A DNA stretch of 64,000 nt from Octopus sinensis (lineage: Eukaryota). The notes under the pieces are model-generated. The model made no database searches. It was not told the DNA's origin and saw only the letters and a program-made list of their open reading frames with translations. Positions 2,470 through 46,554 of the stretch are shown in pieces. The DNA lies in the NCBI RefSeq assembly GCF_006345805.1, contig NC_042999.1, positions 27,094,001-27,158,000 of the forward strand, given 5' to 3'. The stretch's first letter is position 1, and each line of letters begins with the position of its first letter. Made by a program: the position numbers and the translations under genes.

Positions 2470-3921
2470 TTAGTATTCCTGGCCCAGGGTGTTTAAACTT
2501 GGTCTAAATTTTTTTATGAAATATAGTTCTTTATTTTGGCGTTGTGTGAAGGTTGCGTTGTCACTGAATTTATAAAGCGGGTTAGTTGTAAATTTCGGAT
2601 TTACATTTCCAGCACATCTATCTATGTGTCCGCTGACCGGTATTTTGCGGTAATCAGGGTTTCTAATTTGTGATTTATGCACCGCCATCCTGTTACGTAA
2701 GCTATTTTTTGTATGGCCTATATACTGCCTATTGCAGCCTGCGCATGTTATGACGTAAATTAAGTTTTCTGATGCGCAGGTGAAGTTTATTCTAATGGTG
2801 AACTGGTGGCCTTGTTCCAGTATAAATTCTGATCCTTCTTTCAAGATGACACAGATTCCGCAGTTGGGCCTTCCACATTTTCTAACTGCTGGTTTTGTGG
2901 TTGATGTTGAGTGCAGTGTAGCTTGGGTTAAAATCTTTTTCAAGGATTTTGGTTGCCGTTTACTTTTAATGATGGTGTGTGTTTCGAGGATCCGGTTCAT
3001 CTTTGGGTCTCCCTTTAGTAGGGCTGTGCTTTGTAGTATGGTGTTGAAGGCCTCATTGTTGAGTGGGTTGTGTGTAGAGATGTAGGGAAGGGTTTTTAAT
3101 TGTTCTTTCTTTTTTGGTTTTGTTTGTCTCAGGTCTTCTATACTTAATTTAAGCACCCGTTGGATTGCACTGTCTATTAGGGGCTGTGGATAGTTTCTAT
3201 TTGTGAGTGTGGTTCTAAGTTCCTGGAGACGTGTGTGTCGGGTGTTTGTGTCTGATATTATGGTGCAAATCCTTCTAGCTAAACAAAAAGGGACATTCAT
3301 TCTAGTGTGTCGTGGGTGGCATGAATCAAAGGGTAGGTACTGTTTAGAGTCTGTCGGTTTATAGTAGATATCTGTCTCTATTTTGTTGCCGGTTTTCTTA
3401 ATGAGGATGTCTAAAAATGGTAATTCTTTTTCGTTGTAGTCCATCGTGAATTGTATATTGTCATTTATTCCATTTAATAGTATTTTAAATTCCTCAAGTT
3501 TCTCTATACCTTTGTCCCAGATGATGAAACAGTCATCGAGGTATCTTTTCCAGTTGTTATGGATATAGGTGGCAAAGGTGTTTCCATATTTCTCGAGTGT
3601 CATCCGGTATAGTATTTTCTCGAGGTATCCCATCACTAGGTTGGCAAAAGATGGTGCAGTACGCGTGCCCATCGCTGTTCCCGATCTTTGCCTGTAGAAA
3701 TCATTGTCAAAAATAAAATAATTGTTCTCTAAAATGAATCTAAGTCCTTCTATTATAAGGTCTTTGTTTATGCGAGTTGGTAGTTCAAAGGGGTAGTTAT
3801 TCAGCCAGAAGGTGATCGCTTCTATTCCTAGGTTGTGAGGGATGTTAGAATAAAGATTAACTACGTCGAATGATACTAGAAGGGTTTTCTCATTGACTGT
3901 TTTAGGGAGGTGGTTGAGCAT
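2470..3921 (-). CDS. PLE reverse transcriptase (C-terminal part) plus GIY-YIG endonuclease; uninterrupted but N-terminally truncated
   Basis: RT motifs SFDVVNLYSNI, QRSGTAMGT, RYLDD and LPFLD; Cys-rich linker CGRPNCGIC; endonuclease LIYVITCAGCNRQYIGHT...R...H...E...PSLN. The frame stays open to the junction at 3959. Confidence 0.93.
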   Translation of the reverse strand: MLNHLPKTVNEKTLLVSFDVVNLYSNIPHNLGIEAITFWLNNYPFELPTRINKDLIIEGLRFILENNYFIFDNDFYRQRSGTAMGTRTAPSFANLVMGYLEKILYRMTLEKYGNTFATYIHNNWKRYLDDCFIIWDKGIEKLEEFKILLNGINDNIQFTMDYNEKELPFLDILIKKTGNKIETDIYYKPTDSKQYLPFDSCHPRHTRMNVPFCLARRICTIISDTNTRHTRLQELRTTLTNRNYPQPLIDSAIQRVLKLSIEDLRQTKPKKKEQLKTLPYISTHNPLNNEAFNTILQSTALLKGDPKMNRILETHTIIKSKRQPKSLKKILTQATLHSTSTTKPAVRKCGRPNCGICVILKEGSEFILEQGHQFTIRINFTCASENLIYVITCAGCNRQYIGHTKNSLRNRMAVHKSQIRNPDYRKIPVSGHIDRCAGNVNPKFTTNPLYKFSDNATFTQRQNKELYFIKKFRPSLNTLGQEY

Positions 3922-3959
3922 ATCTATATCGTCTCTTACGTAGCTTTTGATGTGTTTTA

Positions 3960-4924
3960 CAAATCAAGCCCATCTCGGAAGAACCAGAAGAACAAAGAAA
4001 ACTTAGAGAAAAAATGTCATTAGAAAAAATGAAGATGGAAATAGAACTACTTAAGCTGAGAGCTAAAACGAATGAAGAAAAAGTAAAAGCCATAGTCGAG
4101 GAAATCAACGAAGAAGTCATCAAACTAATAGACGACATCAATACTGAAACATTACCAGCACTATGGAATGAAGAATGTGAAAAAGAGGAACTTAAGTCCC
4201 TCCAACGATGGGAAAAGAGCGTCATCTGGTTTCTAGATTATGAAACCAACTTCAAAAATGAACACATATCCAACAACCCCTTCATAAAATTAAGTAAATC
4301 AAAACCAAATACCAACAGAACGGAACAACCACCAAGAAATCCTACCACACTCTACACCAGAAAAGTACACCTAAAACACACCCCACCCTACCTACACCAA
4401 CCCCAAAACACCTACAGAGGCCCACCACACCAGTTCGAAAATAGACATACCAACAGAGCAGAACAACCACCAAGAAATCCAAACACACTCTACACCAGAA
4501 AATGCATTTAAAACGCACCCCACACTACCTACACCAACCCCAAAACACTTATAGGGTCCCACCACACCACTCCACGAACCTAAAAGCCACAACATACAAT
4601 ACTATAAAATACAACCCACATAACCAAATCAAAACGCTACTACCAAACATCCACCCCAGGAACCAACCATACAACTATAACAAACAACAAATGCACTACG
4701 GAGGAAACAACTACCAACACAATATACCTGAGGAACTAAGACGGAACACTAGGTTCAACAACAGACTCCAGAACAGAGCACCACAAACTCACTCTGACAA
4801 TTATAACAACATGAGACAGATAAATAATAGCTTTGGACATAACTACACCAACCATTTTTTAGACCTTACACACAGGAACAGGGACACACGATGGCAAAGG
4901 ACAAACAAAAGAAACCTCAGATAA
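3960..4924 (+). pseudogene. Upstream ORF of the PLE: E/K-rich predicted coiled coil followed by a Pro/Asn/His-rich region with a 46-aa tandem repeat; 5'-truncated, one frameshift near 4503
   Basis: ORFs 4014..4511 (open back to 3960) and 4502..4924. Comparing the two 138-bp repeat units (4311, 4449) shows a 1-nt deletion causing the shift. Confidence 0.7.
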
Positions 4925-7171
4925 TTAAGATAATCAATCTCTCAAACAAAGAACTTACACCTAACGAAATAAGCATACTCTCCAAAGCACTTAAATTTAC
5001 ACCCACCCCACAACGTTCTAATTACTATGAAATGAAGATGATATTTCGGAATTTTGCAGAAAACTAAGACTCACCGAGGCATTTCAAGACAAACAAATAG
5101 AGGAGGACTCAATAGCTAGAAACAAGAGCAATTACACCCCCACCAAGGGTAAGAATAAAGCCTTAGACCGCTATTGTGACTACATAACTAATTTCCCGTT
5201 TCAATTCATCAAGAAACAAAAACACAGCCCTAACTTCAACAAAAGAGAATGGAACGACCTCATCAAACTAAGAGAAGACAAAACAATAACAATTAAGGCA
5301 ACGCGATAGTAATAAGGAATATAAACGATTATAAAAATTTAGTGCTATCCCTATTAAGAGATGAAACGTATTATGAAAGGGCCCAACTGTATAACCAGCA
5401 AAAAATAATGCATAACCTTAGGACATTAATCAACACATACCAAGAAAGACTCACGAACAAGGAGTATGAATACATCACTAACTTCAAATGCAAATCGAGT
5501 TTGTTCTATGGTATCCCTAAGGTAAACAAAAGCCAAACCATTAGAGAAACGTGCAAAACATCCACCGACACACTCATCAAAATCCCTCCACCAAATGATC
5601 TTAAACTAAGACCGATAATAGCAGGGCCAGCATGTGAAACTCACCGCCTCAGCAATTTCTTAGACAAACTTCTTAAACCTTTCCTAAAACACATCAAAAG
5701 CTACGTAAGAGACGATATAGATATGCTCAACCACCTCCCTAAAACAGTCAATGAGAAAACCCTTCTAGTATCATTCGACGTAGTTAATCTTTATTCTAAC
5801 ATCCCTCACAACCTAGGATAGAAGCGATCACCTTCTGGCTGAATAACTACCCCTTTGAACTACCAACTCGCATAAACAAAGACCTTATAATAGAAGGACT
5901 TAGATTCATTTTAGAGAACAATTATTTTATTTTTGACAATGATTTCTACAGGCAAAGATCGGGAACAGCGATGGGCACGCGTACTGCACCATCTTTTGCC
6001 AACCTAGTGATGGGATACCTCGAGAAAATACTATACCGGATGACACTCGAGAAATATGGAAACACCTTTGCCACCTATATCCATAACAACTGGAAAAGAT
6101 ACCTCGATGACTGTTTCATCATCTGGGACAAAGGTATAGAGAAACTTGAGGAATTTAAAATACTATTAAATGGAATAAATGACAATATACAATTCACGAT
6201 GGACCACAACGAAAAAGAATTACTATTTTTAGACATCCTCATTAAGAAAACCGGCAACAAAATAGAGACAGATATCTACTATAAACCGACAGACTCTAAA
6301 CAGTACCTACCCTTTGATTCATGCCACCCACGACACACTAGAATGAATGTCCCTTTTTGTTTAGCTAGAAGGATTTGCACCATAATATCAGACACAAACA
6401 CCCGACACACACGTCTCCAGGAACTTAGAACCACACTCACAAATAGAAACTATCCACAGCCCCTAATAGACAGTGCAATCCAACGGGTACTTAAATTAAG
6501 TATAGAAGACCTGAGACAAACAAAACCAAAAAAGAAAGAACAATTAAAAACCCTTCCCTACATCTCTACACACAACCCACTCAACAATGAGGCCTTCAAC
6601 ACCATACTACAAAGCACAGCCCTACTAAAGGGAGACCCAAAGATGAACCGGATCCTCGAAACACACACCATCATTAAAAGTAAACGGCAACCAAAATCCT
6701 TGAAAAAGATTTTAACCCAAGCTACACTGCACTCAACATCAACCACAAAACCAGCAGTTAGAAAATGTGGAAGGCCCAACTGCGGAATCTGTGTCATCTT
6801 GAAAGAAGGATCAGAATTTATACTGGAACATGGCCACCAGTTCACCATTAGAACAAACTTCACCTGCGCATCAGAAAACTTAATTTACGTCATAACATGC
6901 GCAGGCTGCAATAGGCAGTATATAGGCCATACAAAAAATAGCTTACGTAACAGGATGGCGGTGCATAAATCACAAATTAGAAACCCTGATTACCGCAAAA
7001 TACCGGTCAGCGGACACATAGATAGATGTGCTGGAAATGTAAATCCGAATTTACAACTAACCCGCTTTATAAATTCAGTGACAACGCAACCTTCACACAA
7101 CGCCAAAATAAAGAACTATATTTCATAAAAAAATTTAGACCAAGTTTAAACACCCTGGGCCAGGAATACTA
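4891..7171 (+). pseudogene. PLE RT-GIY-YIG ORF, disrupted by frameshifts (about 5035, 5297, 5818, 7048)
   Basis: ATG 4891 reads MAKDKQKKPQIIKIINLS. ORF pieces 5342..5821 and 5971..7128. The expected (A)DKG motif is missing near 5297. Confidence 0.88.
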
Positions 7172-33319: not shown

Positions 33320-34058
33320 GCATTATAATAGGATTATTTAAACAGCTTAAAATCAAAATTTGTTTCTATAATTTGATTATACACGAATGATCAAATTTTA
33401 GCCCTAATAGGAATGGTAGAGACCTAGAAAATATTTCATACTCTTAAAGTTTTGACCTTAAGCTATATTCATATTGTTAGAAGCTATATTCAAATTAGGC
33501 TCAGGTTAATCTCCTTATCAAAAATCTTGCAAACTTAAGCACCATGTTCCGAAAACCACGAATCTTTCCCCTTTAATTCTAAAAATCGGATCTCTATTTT
33601 TGATAAGAGAACTTCTATATATTCTGATGAAGTGATATTTAACTTCTATCGTATTTTACAAATACTCTTTAAACAGAAGCGCTTTTAGCATTATAATAGG
33701 ATTATTTAAACAGCTTAAAATCAAAATTTGTTTCTATAATTTGATTATACACGAATGATCAAATTTTAGCCCTAATAGGAATGGTAGAGACTTAGAAAAT
33801 ATTTCATACTCTTAAAGTTTTGACCTTAAGCTATATTCATATTGTTAGAAGCTATATTCAAATTAGGCTCAGGTTAATCTCCTTATCAAAAATCTTGCAA
33901 ACTTAAGCACCATGTTCCGAAAACCACGAATCTTTCCCCTTTAATTCTAAAAATCGGATCTCTATTTTTGATAAGAGAACTTCTATATATTCTGATGAAG
34001 TGATATTTAACTTCTATCGTATTTTACAAATACTCTTTAAACAGAAGCGCTTTTAGCA
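33320..34058. repeat. Near-identical 368-bp tandem duplication
   Basis: Units start at 33320 and 33688; GCA microhomology; one substitution seen (GACCTAG vs GACTTAG). Confidence 0.95.
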
Positions 34059-42958: not shown

Positions 42959-43369
42959 ATATGTATGTATGTATGGATGTATGTAAGTATGTATGTATAT
43001 AAACATATATTGTATTTCGGGATGGTCAGTTTTGGCTAAATAAACACAAGCACTATATGTTTTTCTACGATCGTTTATTACTCTTTCTTCTTTTATTATT
43101 TTAACTCATGTCCGTTGTTATAATAAGCGGAAATGGAATCTGGAAATGGTTATGTATTATGTCGTGGAAAATGTTGTGTATTATGTTGTATCGAACTTTT
43201 AGTATTTGCCTTACTTTTAGTGTGTATTTAAAAGTAAAATCATGATATTTGATACAGCAAATTTCATCTACTACGTAATCTCTCTTTCATCTATGTAATC
43301 TTCTTTCCTTCATATCATTATTTGTCTGGTTTGAAAAAGTTAATCGGCAATCGGATAAAGATGCATATA

Positions 43370-43406
43370 GACGCAGGAGTGGCTGTGTGGTAAGTAGCTT
43401 GCTTAC
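43370..43406 (+). mobile_element. SINE family A 5' head, interrupted; body resumes at about 45690
   Basis: GACGCAGGAGTGGCTGTGTGGTAAGTAGCTTGCTTAC. Confidence 0.85.
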
Positions 43407-45099
43407 CTACCTCCCATGAGTTTCTATTGTCAGTGTACGCATGCGTCATTGTGTTGTGCACTGACGAAGATAGCCGGCAGTGTTTAGCCTGCCAAAAGAA
43501 GCTGCTGCAAGGTAAGCCTTTTGTCTCTTGAGTTTAGTGGGTTTGTTGTCTGTGATTATATCATTTACAAACAAAGACTCCTTACTGGGTTCAGGATCTT
43601 GGTCTGCTTGCGGTTCAGCAATATTGTTCACATTCAGTGAACATTTTTTTCGCATTGTGAGAAGTACAGTTTGGGGGCGTATCCTTCAACCAAAAGTTGT
43701 TCACTTTTTAATAGTGTGTTTTTACAACATTTTTCATTTATTGGAAAGCTGTATCACTAGTGTTCACATTAAGTGAAATTCTTTTCTCATTGTGAGAATT
43801 ATAGTTTGGTAACGTATCCTGCCATCAAACTTTGTTCGCCATTTGTAAATAATGTGTATTTTTACAAATACATTTACCAATATTTGGAAAGCTCTATTTC
43901 CAGGTTCTAATCGGAGTACCATAGGGCTTGGAATACTTGAATACCCAGAATATTCTTTTTACTGGGTTTGTTGAACTGTTGATTTCTTCTCCTATTGTGA
44001 CTTTTTTTATTGAACTGTTTGCTTTTTCTCTTCTTTCCTTTAGTTTCCTTATTTCTCTCTTTGAAATTTGTGAACTATTGTTTTGGACTTTCTACTTTTT
44101 TAATTTAAAACATGGCCAAAATACGGATATAAAGAAAACTGTCCTCAAGAACAAAGCAAAGTCCAGTTGATTGAGGCCTCTGTAGAAGGAGGAACGAAGG
44201 CGGCCGAGGAGACGGTGGACTCCTCAAACAAAGGGCCGCAAGAGGAAGAAGGTGAGCAACAATAGGTGCTCACCGAAGGATCCTAATGATGAGGGAGAGG
44301 CCCTCCTTCAGTTGAGAGAAAAGATAGAAGAAGTGGAAGAGAAAAGGGACATTGCCGACAGTCGGTGACATAGCACCGGAATGTCCCGGGACCATGCTGG
44401 TAGGGGTTGTGCCACCGGCAGGGGAAGAGACACCGTTGGGGGGAATTGTGCGACCAACGGTAGAATTGACTACCTCGAACCCGGAGGAAGACGAACTATT
44501 GGTCTTCTTCTACAGAGGCGGAGATGTAGAAGAGGTGACGGTAAAGCACCATAAGGGAGTACCTTTAACCTTTACACAGGATCCCGAATGGCCTCCGCAG
44601 ATAGCTGTGGAGGTCATAACATTGTCTGTGAGGTATAGGCTGCAGGGACTCAATGAGGAATATCGCTTGTGGCCGGGCGACGTCGGCTCGGATCCCGCCT
44701 TGGTCTTGAATGAAGCGTGGGTGTTGGCGGAGTATACGGGCACAAGCGATGTTGGGGAGGAATAGTGACAAGAGATTGAAAAGCCTCAGTGTTATAATGT
44801 TTATTGTATAATATTTAATGTTTATTGCATGTTATTGTGTTTAAAGTGCTTAACGCTCCAATTCTTAAATGGACTATTAGTCCAAAAGTTGTAAAACTGA
44901 AGGAAGAGGTTCATTACCTCGTTTTATCTTCTGGGAAAAGAAAAGGAAGAGAATAATGTTTTAAAGAATCAAAAAATCGGCGGGCGTTTTTTGCCTTCTC
45001 CCATTAATATCATCCTTTTCATCATTCACCTAAATCAATGTCTCTGTCCAGCCCGCAAGCTATCCTGTGTCATGCATTTATGGCAATATTTTTGAAATA
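43407..45099 (+). mobile_element. Internally deleted or non-autonomous L1/Tx1-like element with 15-bp TSD
   Basis: AAGTAGCTTGCTTAC at 43392-43406 and 45100-45114; 5' UTR with ~136-bp tandem repeats; purine-rich ORF1-like relic 44112-44765; AATAAA at 45096-45101; no RT seen. Confidence 0.6.
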
Positions 45100-45114
45100 A
45101 AGTAGCTTGCTTAC

Positions 45115-45689
45115 TCTCGACGCATGCGCCATCAATTGTCGGCTGCTGCTACTTGTAAATGTCACGTCGCTTTGAGCTGCATGAATAAGAGAAATATAAG
45201 AGATTGGCTACCGGTAAAACGTTTTGTTTATTTGAGTTCGATGGGGATTTACTGTTGTGTTATATTTAATTGATACCTGCTGAACTCTAAACATTTTTGT
45301 CTGCTTGTGGTGAGTTTGGATGTATTCACATTTTAGTAAGTTAAAACTATTTTTGGTAGGCGTATCTCGCCAACAAAAAGTTTCTGTGTTTTGGTGGGCG
45401 TATCTAAACCAAAATTTTATTCTTGTGCTGTAATTCTTGCCTTGGAGTCCTGGTTTGTTGTAGTTCCTGCCTCGGAGTGCCTGGTTTTGCTGTTGCTACC
45501 AATTTAGAGTTGTAAAGTCGCTTTGAATTGCGTGAATGAAAGGGGAAAACGAGACACGCTAGAGGTAGGACTTCTTGTTTGTTTTTTTTTTTTAGCTCGG
45601 TGGGGATTTGTTGTTGTGTTATTTTTACTAAAATCCTACTGAACTCTAGGTATTTTTCCTGCCTGTGGTGAGTCTAGCTGTACTCACTT
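45115..45689 (+). mobile_element. 5' region of a related second element at the same SINE site
   Basis: Shares ACGCATGCG near the 5' end and TTTGG..GGCGTATC...CAA.AAAAGTT with 43407-45099; internal diverged duplication (about 45166 and 45517). Confidence 0.5.
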
Positions 45690-45848
45690 GGTTCTGGGTT
45701 CCGTTCTACGGCGTGGCATCTTGGGCAAGTGTCTTCTACTAGAGCCTCAAACCGACCAAAGTCTTGTGAGTGGATTTGGTAGACAGAAACTGAAAGAAGC
45801 CTGTCGTGTATTTATATATATATATATATATATATATTGATATAAATA

Positions 45849-45922
<74 letters not shown>

Positions 45923-46128
45923 TGGTGTCTGTGTGTCTGTGTTTGTCCGCTCACCATCGCTTGAGAACTGTTGTTGGTGTGTTTACGTCCCCGTATCTTA
46001 GCGCTTCGGCAAAAAAGACCGAAAGGATAAGTACTAGGCTTACAAAGAATACGTCCTGGGGTCAATTCTTCGACTAAAGGCAGTGCTCCAGCATGGCTGC
46101 AGTCAAATTACTGAAACAAATAATAGAA
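45690..46128 (+). mobile_element. SINE family A body and tail (continuation of 43370-43406)
   Basis: GGTTCTGGGTTCCG...CTTGGGCAAGTGTCTTCTACTA followed by the tail. Confidence 0.88.
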
Positions 46129-46554
46129 TATGTATTTCCTGTCGGCCATACGTTTACAGACTTACTACTTGCATAAATACATAAAATTGTTGAAGCCTGA
46201 TAGATCTAGGTCTTCAAATATACAGGAATAACATTTTACGAATCGAGAAAATTGCACAAGGTGTTTAGTGATTTGTGTGTTATGAGGTCAATTACTACCT
46301 TGATAAATGTAACACATTTCAAGTTCATTAAGGAAACCAGTTTTCTATCCAAAGCAACAGCGAATTTGTTCACAGTGGGCGACTTAAGAAGGGATTCTTT
46401 GAGTCAGTTTTAATAGTTCATAATGTAGGATACCTTCCGTATCGTACTAAACACTCAAACAATATTTTCAATAGGTGAAGTTCTTATCATGAATATATTG
46501 CTGTTGTCTCATTGGGGCTTAGCTACTGTCTCTGACGCATAATATTATTGTAAC

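What the first reader, a model, noticed from the sequence alone, without database searches (positions are those of the whole stretch)
43370..46128. A SINE hit twice at the same head position: candidate SINE/tRNA-targeting retroelement family
Seen: a family A SINE breaks after ...AAGTAGCTTGCTTAC (43406) and resumes at about 45690. The 15-mer recurs at 45100-45114, directly after AATAAA, bracketing a 1.7-kb element (repeat-containing 5' UTR, ORF1-like relic, no RT). A second, related 5' region starts right after the second 15-mer. The site corresponds to the anticodon-arm region between the A and B boxes. Known: Tx1-clade LINEs are often sequence-specific (tRNA clusters, U2, 5S, other transposons) and make TSDs of about this size. 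Inference: a non-autonomous element that parasitises an abundant SINE as a safe-harbour target and separates its Pol III boxes.
Basis: partly seen in the sequence, partly recalled or inferred. Interest (0 to 1): 0.7.

Follow-up and report, generated by a model that had tools for sequence, protein, structure and literature searches.

The report
Half-LINEs aimed at octopus SINE heads
Two broken copies of helper-dependent jumping genes sit head to tail at one exact spot in the front end of a very common short repeat, a spot that hundreds of related copies in this likely octopus genome also occupy and that a complete, enzyme-bearing relative likely cuts for them; site-specific landing is known in this group, but a short repeat as the target was not found in the papers searched.

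Summary
Confirmed and extended. An abundant tRNA-like SINE is split at nt 24 by a 1,693-bp ORF1-only retroelement (both RNA-binding domains lost to a ~550-bp deletion) and by a 570-bp 5' remnant of a second ORF1-only family. The site is family-wide: 26 of 29 other family-1 copies and 34 of 41 exact 3'-end matches lead into the same SINE base. The partner exists: a young 5.45-kb LINE (ORF1; APE-RT-zinc finger ORF2) with the same 3' tail hits the site in 30 of 30 copies; its sister lineage (64% ORF2 identity) lands in (CT)n, 16 of 16. ORF1-only families keep intact, purifying-selected ORFs. About 1% of exact-match SINE sites are filled. Corrections: no hit in a real tRNA gene was seen; in full-length copies the second half of the upstream 15-mer is often element-borne; Tx1 membership is likely but untested against named references. 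The scan had noted this system on other DNA of this genome. New variant of a known kind.

The parts
43369..43391 (+). Head of the target SINE, with an A-box-like motif at 43380-43390
   Evidence: Matches intact SINE copies in the window; motif position; head aligns to a tRNA-Lys gene of the same genome better than 1000 of 1000 shuffles (best of 20 tRNAs picked first)
43392..43406 (+). First copy of the 15-nt target (SINE nt 24-38; tRNA-equivalent: 3' side of the D arm into the anticodon arm)
   Evidence: D15; alignment
43407..45099 (+). Element 1: ORF1-only (HAL1-like) non-LTR retroelement, family 1, internally deleted, 5-7.6% from its family majority
43407..44111 (+). 5' UTR of element 1: GCATGCG palindrome-like motif at 43437-43446, splice-donor-like motif at 43509-43516, two 136-143-bp repeats (43619-43754, 43755-43897)
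   Evidence: function of the motifs untested
44112..44765 (+). ORF1 relic: start codon, then a deletion of about 545-580 bp at 44127-44129 (3-nt microhomology) that removed both RRM domains and three of four zinc ligands; linker and C-terminal domain remain, frame broken
   Evidence: domain layout from intact relatives
44766..45099 (+). 3' UTR ending in the tail shared with the autonomous LINE; AATAAA (45096-45101) is completed by the first bases of the target; no poly(A)
45100..45114 (+). Second copy of the 15-nt target
   Evidence: D15
45115..45684 (+). Element 2: 5' UTR remnant of a second ORF1-only family (family 2), cut by a deletion that joins it to the SINE body at a 3-5-nt microhomology; 8.4% from its family majority
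45685..46130 (+). Body and tail of the target SINE, with a decayed B-box-like motif at 45697-45706

Best explanation
The locus is one SINE copy holding two non-autonomous, ORF1-only retroelements in tandem at its nt 24, likely inserted one after the other by target-primed reverse transcription using the endonuclease and reverse transcriptase of a Tx1-like LINE that lands at the same base. Shown: same site, orientation and 3' tail for the ORF1-only families and the LINE; target duplications; 5'-truncated copies; later deletions in both window elements. Inferred: the LINE endonuclease nicks the bottom strand just 3' of the A box; the ORF1-only RNA packages itself with its own ORF1 protein and recruits ORF2 in trans through the shared ~45-nt tail; transcripts start a few bases inside the upstream duplicate, so full-length cDNA ends in target-like bases that pair with the cut site, leaving a 9-11-nt true duplication plus an element-borne tag (or a 15-17-nt duplication); each insertion leaves two target copies, so the site can be hit again. 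Order of arrival here is unresolved.
For: Family 1: 26 of 29 other 3' ends at the site (25 by motif plus L018 by SINE body); 34 of 41 exact 19-nt 3'-end matches, 2 of the 7 misses having no element at all; 5' flanks show the SINE head and/or target in 30 of 30 rows. Partner: L179 has open ORF1 (467 aa, zf-CCHC) and ORF2 (1,130 aa; Exo_endo_phos 3e-11, RVT_1 5e-27, zf-RVT 7e-9), best PDB match L1 ORF2p (2.7e-65); 30 of 30 top copies end at the target. Tails align. TPRT marks: truncated copies of 155-2,686 bp between head and body; private target variants shared by both copies at 7 loci (L022, L154, L204, L207, L224, L252, L266); off-target copy L273 with a perfect 16-bp duplication. ORF1-only families: 16 open ORFs of 400-425 aa followed by 3' UTR and target, no ORF2; dN/dS of the N-terminal domains 0.09-0.31 in 7 between-subfamily pairs, 0.94-1.11 in 2 near-identical pairs, 0.36-0.44 in 2 others; model shows two RRM folds plus knuckle. 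Tags: where the 3' target lacks TAAC, the 5' copy still reads CTAACC in 6 of 7 full-length young LINE copies.
Against: Trans-mobilisation is inferred from shared site and tail only. The young LINE is younger (about 1.5% between copies) than family 1 (about 5%) and its ORF1 is only 27% identical to the ORF1-only protein, so the actual helper was probably an older relative (such as L132, L100, L114). Family 1 has off-target copies (3 of 29). 27 of 52 variant positions in the 3' target are not shared by the 5' copy, which needs later mutation or tags to explain. Several loci are segmental duplicates, so counts overstate independent events. BLAST-ranked samples favour well-kept copies. No named Tx1 sequence was in any tree.
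Confidence: 0.9

Rival explanations
1. The SINE pieces are part of a composite element (SINE head + ORF1 + SINE body) that moves as one unit, so the 15-mers are internal repeats.
For: Full-length copies carry family-fixed target-like bases at the 5' end, sometimes a whole second degenerate target (L036, L067, L072, L079, L080, L221). One locus joins 123 nt of SINE to the LINE tail (L115).
Against: 5'-truncated copies of many lengths sit between an intact head and body; off-target copies lack the SINE; private target variants are shared locus by locus; many unrelated-UTR families and the LINE share the junction.
Confidence: 0.03
2. The real target is a tRNA gene (or a short AAGTAG-type motif), and SINEs are hit only because they are an abundant look-alike.
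For: SINE head is tRNA-like. One off-target site begins with the same six bases (L273). Five of 100 pattern rows came from another repeat carrying the 12-nt core, though without element.
Against: No examined junction leads into a tRNA gene; none of 20 distinct tRNA sequences holds the target (partial isotype sample); the sister lineage targets (CT)n, not tRNA.
Confidence: 0.1
3. The two window elements arrived together as one read-through dimer rather than by two insertions.
For: Family 2 lies behind another element's 3' end in 8 of 11 loci with a 5' end, window included.
Against: The upstream partners differ from locus to locus; the four recurrent dimers tested share outer flanks and are segmental duplicates; no second family-1/family-2 dimer like the window's was seen among the 12 candidates scored.
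Confidence: 0.1

Closest known systems
Target-specific Tx1-clade LINEs: Tx1 in Tx1D, Tx1-Mar in Mariner-N4_AMi, Tx1-8_Crp and Tx1-4_AMi in LTR elements, Tx1-9_AMi in Harbinger, Keno in U2, Kibi and Koshi in (TC)n and (TTC)n (Kojima 2015, PMC4494074; passages and section 15 read)
   Same: APE-RT LINE that lands at a fixed place in another repeat; non-autonomous riders share the target; a (TC)n-targeting relative exists.
   Different: Target is the head of a tRNA-like SINE, a class not listed in the parts read; riders are ORF1-coding, not snRNA-headed; the (CT)n and SINE targets are split between sister lineages in one genome.
HAL1 (half-L1) (PMC5753468, passage; Bao and Jurka 2010 not held, not seen)
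   Same: Non-autonomous LINE derivative coding only ORF1p.
   Different: Invertebrate; ORF1 is two RRMs plus CCHC knuckle (ZCCHC3-like clusters); site-specific; several long-lived families that swap 5' UTRs and ORF halves (L259-L261 share only the C-terminal part and 3' UTR with L243); no poly(A).
R1/R2 rDNA elements with target sequence in their transcripts (R2 co-transcription is mentioned in a PMC4494074 passage; details recalled)
   Same: Target-derived bases at the RNA end that can pair with the cut site.
   Different: Dispersed SINE target, APE rather than RLE endonuclease compared with R2, likely own 5' UTR promoter.

Membership tests
Non-LTR retrotransposon, L1 group (autonomous partner) | ORF2 with APE endonuclease, RT and C-terminal zinc finger, behind a separate ORF1 | tested here: met
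   Pfam; PDB best match L1 ORF2p
Non-LTR retrotransposon, L1 group (autonomous partner) | TPRT marks: target duplication, 5' truncation, fixed 3' end, no LTR | tested here: met
Tx1 clade | RT groups with named Tx1 elements in a tree | not testable with these tools
   No homolog came back labelled Tx1; tree has no named reference
Tx1 clade | Target-sequence preference (Kojima 2015 threshold: over 20% of flanks) | tested here: met
   30 of 30 and 26 of 29
Tx1 clade | ORF1 with RRM and CCHC zinc knuckle (feature recalled) | tested here: met
   zf-CCHC 2.2e-5; tandem RRM fold for the homologous ORF1-only protein
HAL1-type element | Encodes only ORF1; no ORF2 remnant | tested here: met
   Full-length 2.1-2.3-kb copies between head and body with one ORF
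HAL1-type element | ORF1 and 3' end homologous to a LINE | tested here: met
   27% identity, E 3e-21 over 196 aa; shared tail
HAL1-type element | Descent from mammalian L1 (HAL1 in the strict sense) | tested here: not met
   Nearest named relatives are octopod; works like HAL1, is not HAL1 proper
tRNA-gene-targeting element | Copies inside or beside real tRNA genes | tested here: not met
   tRNA sample incomplete
tRNA-derived SINE (target) | tRNA-like head with A and B boxes | tested here: met
   Box-like motifs at nt 12-22 and 55-64; alignment above shuffles; ARAGORN and Rfam found no tRNA in it
tRNA-derived SINE (target) | Identity with a named octopus SINE (OK, OR1, OR2) | not testable with these tools
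   Only a mention of OR1 was seen (PMC4824008, passages); no sequence library held

The most novel reading that the evidence does not exclude
A Tx1-like lineage in octopods switched between a microsatellite target and the promoter of the genome's commonest SINE, and supports a long-lived guild of ORF1-only riders whose RNAs carry target sequence at both ends (inherited 5' tags; 3' read-through because the poly(A) signal is completed by the target), so that landing is guided partly by RNA-DNA pairing and not by the endonuclease alone; some occupied sites (family 2) become hot spots for re-insertion.
Probability: 0.3. Interest if true: 0.72.

Novelty: new variant of a known kind. Interest (0 to 1): 0.52.

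Why it matters
It adds a SINE promoter to the list of retrotransposon targets and shows ORF1-only riders sharing a LINE's specificity. The two young sister LINEs (endonucleases 56% identical; one aimed at the SINE head, one at (CT)n) are a natural pair for mapping how APE endonucleases change target, which bears on programmable site-specific insertion. With only about 1% of sites filled, it is unlikely to curb the SINE.

Tried and rejected
Pfam on ORF fragments of decayed copies gave nothing over cut-off. The C-terminal domain left in the window (44328-44765) stays unassigned: no Pfam hit, pLDDT under 50, no convincing alignment to the LINE ORF1 C-terminus. Co-mobilised dimers rejected: L035/L039/L147/L148 and L038/L045 share flanks. 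A second target in another repeat rejected: 5 of 5 such rows have no element upstream. Genome-wide excess of tandems not shown: 3 of about 95 real junctions against 1-2% expected. Order of the two window elements unresolved: 5.0-7.6% versus 8.4% divergence, family 2 majority from 9 copies only. Rfam and ARAGORN see no tRNA in the SINE. No RNA holder listed for the window stretch; expression and splicing remain untested. Atlas search of ORF2 gave only generic names. Literature: 8 searches found no description of a SINE-targeting LINE or of these octopus elements; PMC13282606 (part 1 of 3 read plus term search) lists 13 recently active L1-Tx1 families but has no occurrence of 'target' or 'nested'; PMC8967140 seen as passages. 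Repbase, Dfam, subscription journals and supplements (also those of these papers) were not seen and may already hold the families. L257 (compensated frameshift) was dropped before dN/dS; L131 and L037 are unrelated upstream SINEs, not insertions.

Full report
OBSERVATION. The 15-mer is at 43392-43406 and 45100-45114. The window holds six other near-complete copies of the SINE. Against them the head ends at 43406 and the body resumes at about 45685 (SINE nt 43). The AATAAA overlaps the second 15-mer by two bases. The genome is likely an octopus: the only named relatives of the ORF1 protein are Octopus proteins and the nearest named RT is from Argonauta. Contigs of runs from three other organism labels span the tandem junction and both deletion junctions, so the structure is real and older than those lineages' split.

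ELEMENT 1. A search with its 3' end gave 1,178 candidates, 40 scored, 30 fetched. Of the 29 other than the window, 26 continue into the SINE at the same base and 3 do not. An unranked test with the exact 19-nt end gave 41 rows, 34 on target; of the 7 misses 2 have no element; the pattern drops a quarter of off-target rows by its last letter and some rows are duplicates. All 30 5'-end loci show the SINE head and/or the target upstream. Full-length copies are 2.1-2.3 kb; the window copy lacks about 545-580 bp just after the start codon. Related ORF1-only families have 16 open ORFs of 400-425 aa followed only by a 3' UTR and the target. The fold model is confident for residues 9-205 and matches tandem-RRM proteins; a CCHC knuckle follows (weak for this protein, 0.0046); Atlas neighbours include ZCCHC3-like and zf-CCHC clusters. 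dN/dS in the N-terminal domains is 0.09-0.31 between subfamilies and near 1 between near-identical copies: the source lineages need their ORF1, the inserted copies decay. The piece left in the window is the linker and an unassigned C-terminal domain.

ELEMENT 2. All 12 candidates were scored. Of 10 other loci with a 5' end, 9 begin right after the target; 7 lie behind another element's 3' end, 2 behind a SINE head, 1 behind an AT run. Longer copies carry an ORF1 about 70% identical in DNA to family 1 and no RT. In the window it is cut at about 45684 by a deletion with 3-5 nt of microhomology to the SINE.

THE PARTNER. The exact filled junction occurs 309 times, the exact empty site 32,260 times: about 1% occupancy; a looser pattern gives 905 rows, 5 of the first 100 unrelated. 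Among 30 junction loci were several ORF1-only families and copies ending in ORF2. A protein search with one ORF2 found a young family; 30 of 30 fetched copies end at the target, 27 running into SINE body and 3 into another element. L179 has open ORF1 and ORF2 with APE, RT and zf-RVT; its best solved relative is L1 ORF2p. Its last ~45 nt align with the tail of element 1; its ORF1 is 27% identical to the ORF1-only protein. The same search returned a second family (64% ORF2, 56% endonuclease identity) whose 16 of 16 junctions lead into (CT)n; the two are sisters with 100/100 support, next to two octopod or unnamed proteins (no named Tx1 in the tree, midpoint root, so direction of the switch is unknown).

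MECHANISM. Shown: fixed 3' junction without poly(A), one orientation, 5' truncations, private target variants shared by both copies at 7 loci, and an off-target copy with a 16-bp duplication. The cut falls just 3' of the A-box-like motif (nt 12-22) and far from the B-box-like one (nt 55-64); on a tRNA-Lys of the same genome the 15-mer maps from the D arm into the anticodon arm. Shown too: the upstream copy is often partly element-borne. In 6 of 7 full-length young LINE copies whose downstream target lacks TAAC the upstream copy still reads CTAACC, with 9-11 matching bases before it in most; 4 of 5 copies of one ORF1-only group share a one-base-shorter tag; three family-1 copies do the like. 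I saw the pattern and counted it after an earlier scan note proposed such tags. Inferred: transcripts start inside the upstream duplicate, the cDNA end pairs with the cut, and ORF2 acts in trans through the tail. In the window both 15-mers are identical, which fits a true duplication. Tandems follow because each insertion leaves two targets; two tandems look newest-downstream (L285, L293), others are open, and the window's order is unresolved.

COMPARISON. Kojima 2015 (PMC4494074; passages and section 15) lists Tx1 families aimed at DNA transposons, LTR elements, U2 and microsatellites, with SINEU riders sharing a target. HAL1 is the known ORF1-only derivative (PMC5753468, passage). This system works like both; it is not HAL1 proper, and Tx1 membership is likely but lacks a tree with named references. 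Eight literature searches found no SINE-head target and no account of these octopus families; Repbase, Dfam and supplements were not seen. Earlier notes of this scan describe the same system on other DNA of this genome; none lay near this locus; they are leads, not support.

VERDICT. Real, well supported, a new variant of target-specific Tx1-like retrotransposition. This locus itself is two dead copies. Interest 0.52.

Noticed in passing
L180-L182, L186-L197: Young sister LINE family (64% ORF2 identity) inserted in (CT)n at 16 of 16 junctions, with tandem copies (L187, L193); Kibi-like target.
   Followed up: partly
L082-L091 and window 45115: Family 2 lies behind another element in 8 of 11 loci, far above the 3 of about 95 tandems in a genome sample; partners differ. 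Unexplained.
   Followed up: partly
window 43509-43516; 5' ends of L033, L134, L135, L137, L139, L145, L147, L183, L243, L246, L259, L266, L289, L132: A splice-donor-like motif within about 125 nt of the 5' end in 15 of 17 5' ends listed, and a GCATGCG-like motif within 50 nt in 10 of 17; many of these UTRs are related, no shuffle control, function untested.
   Followed up: partly
L259-L261, L269 versus L243: Chimeric ORF1-only family: N-terminal half far diverged (dS about 2), C-terminal domain and 3' UTR nearly identical; 5' UTRs are also swapped among families.
   Followed up: partly
L123 and L115: L123: unrelated sequence ending in only about 45 nt of the shared tail, at the target. L115: 123 nt of SINE joined to a LINE 3' UTR, at the target. 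Possible chimeric riders, one case each.
   Followed up: no
L035, L039, L147, L148; L038, L045; L221: Segmental or tandem duplicates of element-bearing loci.
   Followed up: yes
window 2473-3963 (-) and 5297-7125 (+): Two RT-coding frames in inverted arrangement with near-identical protein; motif recalls Penelope-like elements (recalled, not tested).
   Followed up: no
window 33320-34058: 368-bp tandem duplication, 99% identical.
   Followed up: no
L286 (G000:C1:114494000-114498000): Two element 3' junctions in inverted orientation 85 bp apart.
   Followed up: no
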